IMG/VR virus record: IMGVR_UViG_3300026097_000027
Location: 1 to 57,230 of that record
Reading direction: 5' to 3' (one strand)
DNA from: a virus
Lineage: Duplodnaviria; Caudoviricetes
DNA length: 57,230 nt
In this document: positions 9,052 through 10,219 of the stretch, piece by piece
Position numbering within the stretch: the first letter of the stretch is position 1
Layout: every line of letters begins with the position of its first letter
Position numbers and translations under genes: made by a program
Notes under the pieces: model-generated
The model's database searches: none
Told to the model about the DNA's origin: nothing
The model's input: only the letters and a program-made list of their open reading frames with translations

Positions 9052-9477
9052 ATGTCAGAGTGGACTTACAATGGTCAAATAGTACAAGAACTTCCTAAAG
9101 ATTGTGAAGGCTTTGTCTATTTGATCACAAATACTACTAATAATAAAAAATACATAGGCAAAAAACTAGCACGATTTAAAAAAACTAGACCACCACTTAA
9201 AGGCAGAAAAAATAAAAGGCGTAGCACAGTAGAAAGTGACTGGAGAGACTATTGGGGATCTTCAGATCATCTAAATGCTGATGTAAAGACACTAGGCCCA
9301 GACAAATTCACAAGAGAAATCCTTCATTTTTGTCCTAGCAGAGGCGTATTAAGTTATCTAGAGGCTAAAGAGCAATTCGACAGGCGTGTACTAGAAACGG
9401 ATGAATACTATAACGGTATTATCAATGTGCGTGTAGGCAGTTCAAACATTCTTAAAGAACATCTTAAAAAATTATAG
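9052..9477 (+). CDS. Minimal GIY-YIG endonuclease
   Basis: GFVYLITN...KKYIGKK, YWGSS, catalytic E (YLEAKEQ) and YYN motifs. Only 141 aa, with no C-terminal DNA-binding modules. Confidence 0.8.
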   Translation: MSEWTYNGQIVQELPKDCEGFVYLITNTTNNKKYIGKKLARFKKTRPPLKGRKNKRRSTVESDWRDYWGSSDHLNADVKTLGPDKFTREILHFCPSRGVLSYLEAKEQFDRRVLETDEYYNGIINVRVGSSNILKEHLKKL

Positions 9478-9975
9478 GCAAAACACCGTCAATTAAGCCT
9501 CCACTGGCGCAGTTATAGTGGACTTGGACCTGGCACAAGTGCAGCACAGGGAATTGAATATTCGTTTGACGGCGGAGACTCGCATCACTACCAGATGATG
9601 ATGACTGGATATGCCTAATTAACCAGTTTGATGCGTTTAGAACAATATTTTATAGGCTAAAGATGGGAACCAACCCAGGATTTGCACACAAGATAGCATT
9701 TGTTGTGTAGATTTGCCGTCAGACTTAAGAAACTTGGACGGGATGAGCAGGTACCGGCTGACCGCCTGCGTGATGTAGAGATACATTTAATCCTAATGCT
9801 ATTATGATTGTGCTACTCAGATAATAATCATTTTTTACAAGCCCCGGCAACGGGCTTGTTATGACCATACTATCTAGATAATCTTAAAACTGCTTCGCAG
9901 TTAATGTTAGTTCAATTAAAAGAAAGAAAATAGCGCGAGTGCTAACGAAGTGCTGGTGAGCTTTGCTCACCCTTA
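9478..9975 (+). ncRNA. Candidate large structured RNA (~500 nt)
   Basis: Largest ORF-free gap in the window, with at least ten stems. Examples: CCGTCAA 9486-9492/TTGACGG 9566-9572; CGCATCA 9581-9587/TGATGCG 9629-9635; CCGTC 9716-9720/GACGG 9737-9741; GCAGG 9747-9751/CCTGC 9765-9769; GCAA-tetraloop hairpin 9837-9859. There are also two potential pseudoknots. Strand inferred from the GNRA loop and the upstream gene. Confidence 0.7.
9955..9971. terminator. Hairpin GGTGAGC-ttt-GCTCACC between convergent transcription units
   Basis: Perfect 7-bp stem just beyond the stop of the minus-strand gene at 9990. The U-tract is weak, so it may instead be the RNA's last stem. Confidence 0.35.
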
Positions 9976-9989
9976 ACTATTAGAAGTTA

Positions 9990-10219
9990 TTAGAAGAAAG
10001 GCAGTTGTGTCTTTTTAGTAGTTTCAAGATTCTCTTTGATTATTTCTGAAACAATCTCTCTTTCTTCATAACTAAGATTCATACCTTCTGAAAAGGAAAG
10101 ACCTCTCATGTACCAACACATTTTAAGAACTTCTTTCTTGATTCCCCTGGAATCTTTATCCATATTTTTTGCTATTGTTTGGATCTCTGGTTCAGGGAGT
10201 CTCAGGATCCTTTGGCGAA
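9990..10219 (-). CDS. gp51-like baseplate hub assembly protein, probably expressed as a -1 frameshift extension of gp26 (alternative independent start ATG 10163)
   Basis: LKMCWYMRGLSFSEGMNLSYEEREIV resembles gp51/GT-type domains (W/Y-rich, then a short helix ending in ER). The frame is open from the slippery site, and there is no SD before ATG 10163. Confidence 0.6.

What the first reader, a model, noticed from the sequence alone, without database searches (positions are those of the whole stretch)
9478..9975. About 500-nt ornate non-coding RNA with multi-stem junctions and two pseudoknots
Seen: a locally GC-richer, ORF-free region in an otherwise tightly packed genome. Domain 1 is closed by CCGTCAA/TTGACGG (9486-9572) and contains TCCACT/AGTGGA and CCTG..GCAC/GTGC..CAGG hairpins. 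Domain 2 is CGCATCA/TGATGCG with an inner ACTGG/CCAGT stem whose loop GCCTA (9613-9617) matches TAGGC (9653-9657). The loop ATAGCATT (9693-9700) is the exact complement of AATGCTAT (9795-9802), and AGGATT (9677-9682) can pair with AATCCT (9789-9794). There is also a GCAA tetraloop hairpin (9837-9859) and an AACTGC/GCAGTT hairpin (9888-9902). Established: phages carry large ornate RNAs of unknown function (GOLLD, ROOL). I cannot assign this one to a known family by eye.
Basis: partly seen in the sequence, partly recalled or inferred. Interest (0 to 1): 0.85.

Follow-up and report, generated by a model that had tools for sequence, protein, structure and literature searches.

The report
Large phage RNA extending Polynucleobacter-1 motif
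This stretch of a giant freshwater phage encodes a roughly 490-base, heavily knotted non-coding RNA whose first third is an already catalogued motif of unknown function, and whose undescribed remainder carries two short sites that always change in step with each other.

Summary
Window 9475-9975 (+) is a conserved, ORF-free, structured RNA ending in a terminator-like hairpin.

It is not wholly new. Bases 9496-9638 match Rfam RF01718 (Polynucleobacter-1) at 94.8 bits, full length. That model covers only about 143 of about 490 nt.

The rest has no Rfam match. It is conserved in more than 180 viral contigs and has strong covariation (95.6% paired against 81.7% shuffled; 39 of 59 pairs changed on both sides; 0 of 500 shuffles as high). 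Three pseudoknots are supported. GCCTA/TAGGC is equivocal.

The 3' core also occurs with a different 5' domain in other phages, and full-length copies sit in integrase-bounded islands of Polynucleobacter chromosomes.

Two 10-nt direct repeats (9816-9825 and 9873-9882) carry the same variable dinucleotide in 147 of 147 distinct viral copies. No complementary partner was found in cis.

Most likely this is a stand-alone, trans-acting RNA of mobile elements, not a cis-regulatory leader. Its function is unproven. I class it as a new variant of a known kind.

The parts
9475..9975 (+). Whole conserved RNA element, about 490-500 nt. It runs from the AGGCAAA motif that overlaps the stop codon of the upstream gene to the last hairpin.
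   Evidence: nhmmer profile matched end to end in 56 related loci. Alignment A3. G-U 167 against A-C 24 cells in the 59 modelled pairs, which fits RNA of the + strand.
9496..9638 (+). 5' domain, equal to the Rfam Polynucleobacter-1 motif (RF01718), model positions 1-141.
   Evidence: cmscan 94.8 bits, E 3.8e-19, cut-off 37.
9486..9492 (+). PK0 5' strand CCGUCAA. It lies outside the Rfam model and pairs with 9566-9572.
   Evidence: Cognate -9.2 against non-cognate -5.8 kcal/mol. Variants include GCGG/CCGC, UCGCCAA/UUGGCGA and CUGCCAA/UUGGUAG.
9566..9572 (+). PK0 3' strand UUGACGG, in the loop of the third Polynucleobacter-1 hairpin.
   Evidence: The bacterial copies have CUACUG with CAGUAG at the same places (read by eye).
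9613..9617 (+). Loop GCCUA, candidate pseudoknot partner of UAGGC at 9653-9657. Unproven.
   Evidence: no cognate advantage. AACCU/AGGU double change in several sequences, but a GACCU/AGGC mismatch in others.
9653..9662 (+). Conserved single-stranded UAGGCUAAAG (AGGCAAAAAG in most relatives).
   Evidence: A3 conservation.
9665..9677 (+). Hairpin Ha (GGGA...CCCA).
   Evidence: 4 of 4 pairs changed on both sides, 93.3% paired (helix 1).
9685..9707 (+). Hairpin Hb. Its loop, 9693-9699, is the 5' strand of pseudoknot PK2.
   Evidence: 7 of 7 pairs changed on both sides (helix 2).
9796..9803 (+). PK2 3' strand AUGCUAUU, pairing with the Hb loop AUAGCAU (9693-9699).
   Evidence: 97.9% paired, 4 of 7 pairs changed on both sides (helix 3). 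Duplex test.
9718..9721 (+). Helix i 5' strand GUCA. It pairs with UGAC at 9759-9762, inside the loop of helix ii, making an H-type pseudoknot.
   Evidence: CG 24 / UA 18 and GC 19 / AU 17 / GU 6 at the two variable pairs (helix 4).
9740..9744 (+). Helix iii 5' strand GGGAU, pairing with AUCCU at 9790-9794.
   Evidence: 4 of 5 pairs changed on both sides (helix 5). Duplex test.
9747..9768 (+). Helix ii (GCAGGU...GCCUG) enclosing the invariant GGUACCGG...ACCGCC and the helix i 3' strand at 9759-9762.
   Evidence: 97.6% paired, 2 of 5 pairs changed on both sides and 3 invariant (helix 6).
9790..9794 (+). Helix iii 3' strand AUCCU.
   Evidence: helix 5.
9816..9825 (+). Twin site 1, CUC[AG]AUAAU. 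The variable dinucleotide is at 9819-9820.
   Evidence: Dinucleotide identical to that of twin site 2 in 42 of 42 rows, mutual information equal to the full entropy; in 131 of 131 distinct stretches; in 147 of 147 distinct cores.
9839..9858 (+). Hairpin between the twin sites (AAGCCCC...GGGCUUG).
   Evidence: 4 of 7 pairs changed on both sides (helix 7).
9873..9882 (+). Twin site 2, UCU[AG]AUAAU. The variable dinucleotide is at 9876-9877.
9888..9902 (+). Hairpin AACUGC-UUC-GCAGUU.
   Evidence: Third stem pair (A3 columns 520/534) occurs as UA 13, CG 10, GC 7 (helices 8-9).
9932..9953 (+). Hairpin T1 with a tandem G-A internal loop. In relatives it reads GCGUU-GA-GC-GNAA-GC-GA-AAACGC. It is also conserved in class-2 phage RNAs and in bacterial copies.
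   Evidence: helices 10-11..
9955..9971 (+). Terminal hairpin T2 (GGUGAGC-UUU-GCUCACC). In relatives it is followed by a T-run, as in an intrinsic terminator. In the window the T-run is weak.
   Evidence: 98.3% paired, 4 of 7 pairs changed on both sides (helix 12). A3.
9052..9477 (+). Upstream neighbour: a 141-aa SegE-like protein made of a GIY-YIG nuclease domain only.
   Evidence: PF19835, E 8e-36. A homologue lies directly upstream on the same strand in 123 of 124 testable viral loci.

Best explanation
Window 9475-9975 (+) encodes one non-coding RNA of about 490 nt.

Shown:
- Its 5' third is the Rfam motif Polynucleobacter-1 (RF01718), closed by a pseudoknot with the 5' leader that the Rfam model does not include.
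- Its 3' two-thirds are an undescribed conserved core. The core has an H-type pseudoknot around GGUACCGG...ACCGCC, a loop-to-strand pseudoknot, several hairpins, a tandem-GA hairpin and a terminator-type hairpin.
- The same full-length RNA occurs once per genome in a clade of uncultured T4-like phages of about 350 kb, and in integrase-bounded islands of Polynucleobacter chromosomes.
- The core also occurs with a different 5' domain.

Inferred:
- It is made as its own stable RNA. In the phage it is probably read through from, or processed out of, the SegE-like gene's transcript, and it ends at its own terminator.
- It acts in trans rather than controlling a downstream gene.
- The conserved core is the working part and the 5' domain is an exchangeable module.
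- The two direct repeats (YYY-NN-AUAAU) on either side of a hairpin are two equivalent single-stranded recognition sites for one common partner, either a nucleic acid or a two-fold symmetric protein. That would explain why their variable bases are always kept identical.

My odds: structured RNA of the + strand about 0.95; stand-alone rather than cis-regulatory about 0.7; twin sites as binding sites for a shared trans partner about 0.35.
For: Family:
- RF01718 at 94.8 bits, full length. Nothing else in Rfam for the rest.

Conservation:
- RF01718 found in 15 of 17 related loci tested.
- Profile hit in 63 of 85 loci, the window's own copy L001 among them, and in 182 of 204 viral loci.

Structure:
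- 95.6% of cells paired against 81.7% in shuffles; 39 of 59 pairs changed on both sides against 25.2; covariation score 0.422 against 0.154; 0 of 500 shuffles as high; slid controls 0.04-0.075.
- PK0 and PK2 pass the duplex tests.
- Strand: G-U 167 against A-C 24 cells.

Against a cis-regulatory role:
- In 38 of 42 A3 rows the RNA is followed by two hairpins and then an ATAAATA motif before the next gene.
- ATAAATA lies 80 nt or less upstream of gene starts for 8 of its 12 occurrences in the window, like a T4-type late promoter.
- In the window the next gene is convergent.
- In bacteria, genes of either orientation are inserted between the RNA and the next conserved gene.

Modularity:
- 14 loci have the core, but 0 of 14 match RF01718 or any other Rfam family.

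Bacterial full-length copies:
-.

Twin sites:
- Identical dinucleotide in 147 of 147 distinct viral cores, with five variants (AG 64, GG 51, GC 27, GA 3, AC 2) and at least 31 label changes on a tree built with those bases masked.
- Bacterial copies have CUC-NNNN-AAA / UCU-NNNN-AAA with an identical NNNN in 7 of 9, plus 3 more identical pairs.
- No cis partner: the best column bin pairs in only 22-23 of 42 sequences.
Against: - No transcript evidence. No RNA run was listed, so ends, abundance and processing are unknown.
- The 5' end and the promoter are not defined. In phages the RNA abuts the SegE-like gene, so it could be a 3' UTR.
- The proposed trans partner was not found. There were no extra same-sense copies of the site in three complete phage genomes. 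Complementary sites there were not seen at conserved places and their numbers looked like chance (no formal expectation was computed). No consistent target was found in the bacterial islands.
- 2 of 9 bacterial copies break the identity rule, and so does G001:C51 (GGCG against AGCG).
- The 31 changes rest on a FastTree tree of short sequences, and recombination could move both sites together. The safe minimum is four changes.
- A3 is a MAFFT alignment. I chose the helices after inspecting it, which favours them somewhat, though the slid and shuffled controls are far lower.
Confidence: 0.5

Rival explanations
1. It is a cis-regulatory leader, possibly a riboswitch, for the gene downstream. The 2010 paper that described Polynucleobacter-1 listed the motif this way (cis-regulatory 'y', switch '?').
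For: Table row for Polynucleobacter-1 in PMC2864571 (passages seen). In bacterial loci a 188-aa tyrosine recombinase gene lies downstream on the same strand in 10 of 10 loci.
Against: The motif is the 5' end of a 490-nt RNA. Its 3' end carries two hairpins, the second terminator-like, and in 38 of 42 phage rows a separate ATAAATA promoter-like motif precedes the next gene. The window has a convergent gene downstream. The downstream genes differ between the phage and bacterial contexts. In bacteria the gap to the recombinase is 300-1000 nt and often holds another gene on either strand.
Confidence: 0.1
2. It belongs with the SegE-like GIY-YIG gene. Either it is that gene's structured 3' UTR (for stability or autoregulation), or it is simply the conserved gene next to which a free-standing homing endonuclease has lodged, the RNA gene's DNA being the nuclease's target.
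For: A SegE-like gene lies directly upstream on the same strand in 123 of 124 testable viral loci. Its stop codon overlaps the conserved AGGCAAA motif. The protein is a nuclease domain alone, 141 aa. That free-standing homing endonucleases sit beside highly conserved genes is recalled knowledge of T4 seg and mob genes.
Against: By eye in the alignment, about five class-2 loci show other sequence upstream of the RNA. The bacterial copies have none in the +/-6 kb mapped; a divergent DUF6641 gene lies upstream instead. So the RNA does not need the nuclease. All phage loci come from one clade, where synteny alone could explain the adjacency. This reading explains the neighbourhood, not what the RNA does.
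Confidence: 0.15
3. It is a self-processing or copied RNA. The twin sites would be two equivalent cleavage/ligation sites or template-jump sites that define a unit of 47-60 nt, excised, circularised or copied repeatedly. Identity of the two sites is intrinsic to such mechanisms.
For: Perfect identity of the two sites. A stable hairpin lies between them. Spacing is 47-60 nt in phages and 59 or 72 nt in bacteria. The analogies are recalled, not tested: matched take-off and landing codons of T4 gene 60, repeat-flanked templates of rolling-circle reverse transcription, and repeat units of type III antitoxin RNAs.
Against: No Rfam self-cleaving ribozyme or intron matched. No tandem array is present. 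The neighbours scanned against Pfam show no reverse transcriptase or ToxN-like domain; the PADLOC library was not searched. No form lacking the unit exists among the loci. There is no conserved reading frame: the longest open frame on the + strand ranges from 37 to 133 aa among A3 rows, median 53.5 aa.
Confidence: 0.1
4. It is a DNA element. The twin sites would be binding or crossover sites for a DNA-binding protein (iterons, operators or recombination cores), and the region would be an origin or a recombination site.
For: Identity between two sites that changes from lineage to lineage is typical of recombination cores and of operator or iteron sets (recalled). Bacterial copies lie in islands with three tyrosine recombinase genes.
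Against: Strong compensatory change with a G-U over A-C bias (167 against 24) points to RNA of one strand. No tyrosine recombinase was found in 0 of 5 large phage records. The spacing of 47-60 bp varies without helical phasing and is short for synapsis. No recombined form was seen.
Confidence: 0.05

Closest known systems
Polynucleobacter-1 RNA motif (Rfam RF01718; Weinberg et al. 2010, PMC2864571)
   Same: Window 9496-9638 matches the whole 141-position model at 94.8 bits. Like the published family, copies occur in Polynucleobacter: 17 of 151 genomes score above the cut-off. The paper's table also lists fresh water and estuary; the habitat of the viral records was not looked up here.
   Different: The Rfam model is about 29% of the conserved RNA. 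It omits the 5' leader strand of pseudoknot PK0 and about 340 nt of covarying 3' structure. The paper's listing as a likely cis-regulator does not fit the contexts seen here. The 3' core also exists without this motif.
GOLLD and ROOL large ornate RNAs of phages and prophages
   Same: It is large, multi-domain, pseudoknotted, carried by phages and mobile elements, and of unknown function. It is a stand-alone gene with no obvious cis target. GOLLD and ROOL were reported to form RNA-only multimers (bioRxiv 10.1101/2024.12.08.627333; search listing and start of abstract seen).
   Different: No sequence or structure match to those Rfam models at E up to 10. It is smaller. It has the twin identical sites, which I do not recall for those RNAs. 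Multimerisation was not tested here.
IS110-family bridge RNAs
   Same: In one RNA, two separate segments must agree on the same short variable core. In bridge RNAs both the target and the donor loop read the same core dinucleotide.
   Different: No IS110-type recombinase lies next to the RNA (Pfam of the neighbours). The sites here are direct repeats with only 2-4 variable bases, not long programmable guides. This is an analogy of logic only.
Paired sites that co-vary with a trans factor, such as lambdoid nutL/nutR (recalled)
   Same: Two copies of a linear element plus a hairpin. The copies are identical within a genome and differ between related genomes.
   Different: The two copies here lie 47-60 nt apart inside one RNA. 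No N-like or other co-varying protein was identified.

Membership tests
Rfam RF01718 Polynucleobacter-1 | Covariance-model score at or above the curated gathering score (37 bits) over the full model. | tested here: met
   94.8 bits, model 1-141 of 141, E 3.8e-19.
Rfam RF01718 Polynucleobacter-1 | The model's helices form in the sequence. | tested here: met
   Alignment: all stems are formed; only one pair (two v marks, one per partner) is flagged non-standard.
Rfam RF01718 Polynucleobacter-1 | Position as a 5' leader of a downstream gene (the paper lists it as a likely cis-regulator). | tested here: not met
   About 340 nt of further structure and terminator-type hairpins follow. The next gene in the window is convergent. 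This is a property claimed for the family, not part of the Rfam model.
GOLLD / ROOL / HEARO / OLE / raiA large ncRNAs | Match to the family's covariance model. | tested here: not met
   None of these families appears in the table of cmscan matches up to E = 10 over 9300-10200.
tRNA / tmRNA | Detected by ARAGORN or by the Rfam tmRNA models. | tested here: not met
   0 genes in the window. No Rfam hit.
Group I / II introns, RNase P, self-cleaving ribozymes | Match to the Rfam models. | tested here: not met
Type III antitoxin RNA (ToxI-like) | Tandem array of repeats of about 34-45 nt directly upstream of a ToxN-family toxin gene. | tested here: not met
   No tandem array within the RNA. Neighbours show no ToxN-like Pfam domain. 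The PADLOC library was not searched.
IS110 bridge RNA | Encoded beside an IS110-family (DEDD/Tnp) recombinase. | tested here: not met
   Neighbours are SbcCD-like, SegE-like and baseplate hub proteins. In bacteria they are DUF6641, tyrosine recombinases and an AAA ATPase.

The most novel reading that the evidence does not exclude
The Polynucleobacter-1 motif is only one exchangeable 5' module of a new family of RNAs, about 500 nt long, shared by giant T4-like freshwater phages and by chromosomal islands that may be their satellites. In this reading the conserved core is a specificity device. Its two identical, rapidly switching single-stranded sites would read one co-evolving target twice, or bridge two copies of it. 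That would make this a programmable RNA of mobile elements that works without any of the known guide-RNA enzymes next to it.
Probability: 0.15. Interest if true: 0.9.

Novelty: new variant of a known kind. Interest (0 to 1): 0.65.

Why it matters
Polynucleobacter-1 has been in Rfam since 2010 as a small orphan motif, presumed to be a cis-regulator. Four findings here change how it would be studied.

1. It is the 5' domain of an RNA about 3.5 times longer, with at least three covariation-supported pseudoknots.
2. The longer RNA is a single-copy gene of phages of about 350 kb, and is also carried by integrase-bounded islands of a bacterial genus that has cultured isolates.
3. The undescribed 3' core, not the catalogued motif, is the part shared across variants.
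4. The core holds two sites whose variable bases are kept identical across many lineages. I know of no standard RNA-structure explanation for this pattern. It gives a concrete handle for experiments: mutate one site or both, or pull down the partner.

Because Polynucleobacter has cultured strains, the open question of what such large phage-associated RNAs do becomes testable in a cultivable host.

Tried and rejected
- Rfam with permissive thresholds on 9300-10200. Apart from RF01718 it gave only chance-level hits far below their cut-offs.
- blastn of the region, and of a typical relative, against 50,697 phage records. No match, so no cultured phage in that collection carries it at blastn sensitivity.
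- Expression. No RNA holder was listed for the stretch.
- Coding. No conserved frame: the longest open frame on the + strand ranges from 37 to 133 aa among A3 rows, median 53.5 aa.
Rejected.
- A cis partner for the twin sites. Mutual information over all A3 columns and a per-sequence search for complementary stretches found none. The best candidate, around the UGUGCA region upstream of site 1, pairs in only 22-23 of 42 sequences.
- Pairing of the twin sites with each other, palindromy of the sites, sigma-70 or late-promoter readings, and an anticodon-loop mimic. I considered these by eye and dropped them because they fit only some variants.
- A recombined or deleted form that joins the two sites. 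0 found among all loci.
- A regulon of extra same-sense sites in three complete phage genomes. No excess for the genome's own dinucleotide.
- Complementary target sites in those genomes. 12-58 loose matches per site, with nothing seen at conserved places; I did not compute a formal expectation.
- Targets inside the bacterial islands. Nothing consistent.
- DUF6641 and tyrosine recombinases in five large phage records. 0 of 5 each. For DUF6641 the control genomes also gave nothing, so that blank is weak.
- The order-wide pattern search. It was too loose: of 30 genomes with matches only 4 places are real copies.
- A tyrosine-recombinase-guided or GIY-YIG-guided 'RNA guide' reading. I considered it because both neighbours are catalytic domains only. 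I kept it only as part of the novel case, because neither enzyme is present in both contexts.
- I did not use the metagenome scan, covariance-model building, structure prediction or complex prediction.
- Supplementary files of PMC2864571 were closed. They may show the authors' drawing and gene contexts for the motif.
Full report
**What is there.** The window is a 57-kb fragment of a T4-like phage. CheckV estimates it at 16% complete. The region lies between a 141-aa SegE-like gene made of a GIY-YIG domain only (9052-9477, +; PF19835, E 8e-36) and a convergent 92-aa ORF followed by a baseplate-hub gene. SbcCD-like genes lie upstream and the portal gene downstream. The portal is 47% identical to those of jumbo phages such as Atu_ph07 and Phosso. 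Related viral records that hold the same element are 345-355 kb long. Only frames of 49 aa or fewer overlap 9478-9975. GC rises modestly.

**Known part.** cmscan against Rfam 15 gives one match in the window above its gathering score: RF01718, Polynucleobacter-1, at 9496-9638 (+), 94.8 bits against a cut-off of 37, covering model positions 1-141. A permissive scan of 9300-10200 adds only chance-level hits. The one paper in the library that holds the term 'Polynucleobacter-1' is Weinberg et al. 2010. Its table lists the motif as a probable RNA and probable cis-regulator, found in Burkholderiales and in fresh water or estuary (passages seen).

**The RNA is much longer than the Rfam model.**
- A pattern scan and a search with the baseplate-hub protein gave 84 viral loci.
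- RF01718 was present in 4 of 4 and in 15 of 17 loci scanned.
- blastn and an nhmmer profile showed that conservation runs without a break from the end of the SegE-like gene to a terminator about 490 nt later. 63 of 85 loci have a profile hit, the window's own copy L001 among them. 56 loci have it end to end, giving 42 distinct sequences.
- In 38 of 42 aligned rows the RNA is followed by an ATAAATA motif and then the next gene.
- In the window, ATAAATA occurs 12 times (mononucleotide shuffles average 32), and 8 of the 12 lie 80 nt or less upstream of gene starts. That fits a T4-type late promoter, whose consensus I recall as TATAAATA.
- The window, L002 and L004 lack that downstream gene, and the RNA abuts the convergent ORF.

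**Structure.**
- For the part outside the Rfam model I derived helices from A3 and counted them. There are 59 pairs in 12 helices. 95.6% of cells are paired (shuffles 81.7%). 39 pairs changed on both sides (shuffles 25.2). The covariation score is 0.422 (shuffles 0.154; 0 of 500 as high). With partners slid by 1-3 columns the score is 0.04-0.075.
- I chose the helices after looking at the alignment, which favours them. The margin is nonetheless large.
- G-U cells outnumber A-C cells 167 to 24, so the folded molecule is RNA of the + strand.
- Supported elements, in window coordinates:
  - hairpin Ha, 9665-77
  - hairpin Hb, 9685-9707
  - PK2: Hb loop 9693-99 with 9796-9803
  - helix i: 9718-21 with 9759-62, the latter inside the loop of helix ii (9747-52 with 9764-68), making an H-type pseudoknot around the invariant GGUACCGG...ACCGCC
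  - helix iii: 9740-44 with 9790-94
  - hairpin 9839-58
  - hairpin 9888-9902
  - tandem-GA hairpin T1, 9932-53
  - terminal hairpin T2, 9955-71
- A test that does not depend on column alignment compares the duplex energy of cognate and non-cognate partners. It supports PK0, the pairing of the 5' leader 9486-92 with the loop 9566-72 of the third Polynucleobacter-1 hairpin (-9.2 against -5.8 kcal/mol), with variants such as GCGG/CCGC, UCGCCAA/UUGGCGA and CUGCCAA/UUGGUAG. The 5' strand lies outside the Rfam model.
- The same test supports PK2 and helix iii. It leaves GCCTA/TAGGC undecided.

**Distribution and modularity.**
- Of 204 viral loci, 182 have a profile hit.
- Four of five large phage records have exactly one RF01718 copy.
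- Thirty-one loci match only the 3' part of the profile; about half of these are cut off by the locus end. In the 14 I scanned, no Rfam family matched at all. Their alignment shows a different 5' domain joined to the same core: helix i/ii, the twin sites, a hairpin, T1 and a terminator. The core is therefore the shared part and Polynucleobacter-1 is one alternative 5' module.
- RF01718 is above its cut-off in 17 of 151 Polynucleobacter genomes, several of them at chromosomal positions in megabase contigs.
- These bacterial copies are full-length relatives. They have Polynucleobacter-1, ACCGCC, the two repeats, the T1 hairpin (GUGAUGAGCG...GCGAAAUCAC) and a terminator about 480 nt from the start.
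- All 10 bacterial loci examined share one neighbourhood: a divergent DUF6641 gene upstream and, downstream on the same strand, a 188-aa tyrosine recombinase made of the catalytic domain only. In the nine or ten loci that also hold them lie two unknown proteins, an AAA ATPase and a roughly 420-aa integrase. Two genomes carry the island twice.
- The phages have no tyrosine recombinase (0 of 5).
- Upstream of the bacterial RNA there is a conserved TAAATAAC (TATAAATAA in 2 of 10) that resembles the phage late-promoter motif. This hints that the island RNA might be switched on by an infecting T4-like phage. I did not test it.

**The twin sites.**
- Two direct repeats flank the 9839-58 hairpin: CUC-NN-AUAAU (9816-25) and UCU-NN-AUAAU (9873-82).
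- In A3 the two variable columns of one copy predict those of the other perfectly; mutual information equals the full entropy.
- Across all loci the dinucleotide is the same in both copies in 131 of 131 distinct stretches and in 147 of 147 distinct cores: AG 64, GG 51, GC 27, GA 3, AC 2. On a FastTree tree built with these bases masked, the label changes at least 31 times. That number is soft, because the sequences are short and recombination could move both sites together. The hard minimum is four changes.
- The flanks stay different (CUC against UCU), and the spacing varies from 47 to 60 nt.
- Bacterial copies show the same rule with other letters: CUC-NNNN-AAA and UCU-NNNN-AAA, with NNNN being AGAG, AGCG, AUCA or AACA. 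7 of 9 are identical; the two exceptions differ by one base and by two bases. Three further identical pairs and one further exception appear.
- This is identity, not complementarity. I found no complementary partner in cis, no joined or deleted form, no excess of extra copies in three complete phage genomes, and no conserved complementary target there or in the islands.

**Interpretation.**
- Shown: this is a structured + strand RNA of about 490 nt. It is a member of RF01718 by score. It extends the family 5' by one pseudoknot strand and 3' by about 340 nt. It is carried by giant phages and by bacterial islands.
- Inferred: it is a stand-alone, trans-acting RNA. It has terminator-type 3' hairpins. 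The next gene has its own promoter-like motif, or is convergent, or differs between contexts. The same RNA is kept in unrelated neighbourhoods.
- The best guess I can commit to for the mechanism is this. The conserved core presents two equivalent single-stranded sites to one partner, which would be a nucleic acid read twice or a symmetric protein. That partner's specificity co-evolves with the element, which would explain the strict identity.
- I hold this at about one in three. The partner is unknown, and rival mechanisms that also need identity (cleavage/ligation or template-jump sites) are not excluded.
- The tight link with the SegE-like gene in phages (123 of 124) is most simply a homing endonuclease gene lodged beside a highly conserved gene. 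The RNA exists without it in bacteria, and about five class-2 loci show other sequence upstream (by eye).

**Novelty in print.** Searches for 'Polynucleobacter-1' (1 paper), for structured RNAs of T4-like or freshwater phages, for Polynucleobacter ncRNA motifs (Brewer et al. 2021, read by passages, describes other motifs), for DUF6641 (0 papers) and for GOLLD/ROOL turned up no description of the extended RNA, of the class-2 form or of the twin sites. The library is incomplete and supplements were closed.

Noticed in passing
L141:5238-5868 (+) and 13 further loci (L108, L191, L140, L126, L172, L189, L100, L099, L097, L147, L160, L182, L139): A second class of the RNA. It has the same 3' core (GGUACCGG...ACCGCC pseudoknot, twin sites, T1 hairpin, terminator) but a different 5' domain of about 250 nt that matches no Rfam family (0 of 14).
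   Followed up: partly
L230-L239 (Polynucleobacter chromosomes), about +/-6 kb around the RNA: The RNA sits in a conserved island: a divergent DUF6641 gene, the RNA, then a 188-aa tyrosine recombinase made of the catalytic domain only (10 of 10 loci). In the nine or ten loci that also hold them lie two unknown proteins, an AAA ATPase and a roughly 420-aa integrase. Two genomes carry the island twice. It may be a phage satellite or an integrative element.
   Followed up: partly
L230-L239, 10-45 nt upstream of the RNA's 5' strand AUUACUACUG: A conserved TAAATAAC motif (TATAAATAA in L236 and L230) resembles the T4-type late promoter motif that the phage itself uses. The island RNA might be transcribed only during infection.
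   Followed up: no
window, e.g. 5105(-), 11093(-), 15472, 20539, 31759, 43296, 51572, 54843: ATAAATA occurs 12 times, against about 32 expected from mononucleotide shuffles. 8 of the 12 lie 11-43 nt upstream of gene starts. These are likely late promoters, and the motif is avoided elsewhere.
   Followed up: partly
window 9052-9477: The SegE-like protein is only 141 aa, essentially the GIY-YIG catalytic domain with no DNA-binding domain. PHROGs labels its family 'NAD synthetase', which looks like a mislabel.
   Followed up: no
L110:4477-4942; L048:6804-6990; L023:4892-5063: L110 is the one locus of 124 with a full RNA but no SegE-like gene directly upstream. L048 and L023 hold only the 3' third of the RNA (profile positions about 300-474) although there is room upstream.
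   Followed up: no
L209 / G001:C80 (9.2-kb contig of a Polynucleobacter MAG) and L211 (56.7-kb contig binned as Bifidobacterium): Phage-type copies of the RNA sit on contigs binned into bacterial MAGs. These are probably phage contigs. The Polynucleobacter case is a weak hint at the host.
   Followed up: no
window 9978-9996: A 10-nt unit TATTAGAAGT is repeated 1.9 times directly after the terminal hairpin, overlapping the stop of the convergent ORF.
   Followed up: no
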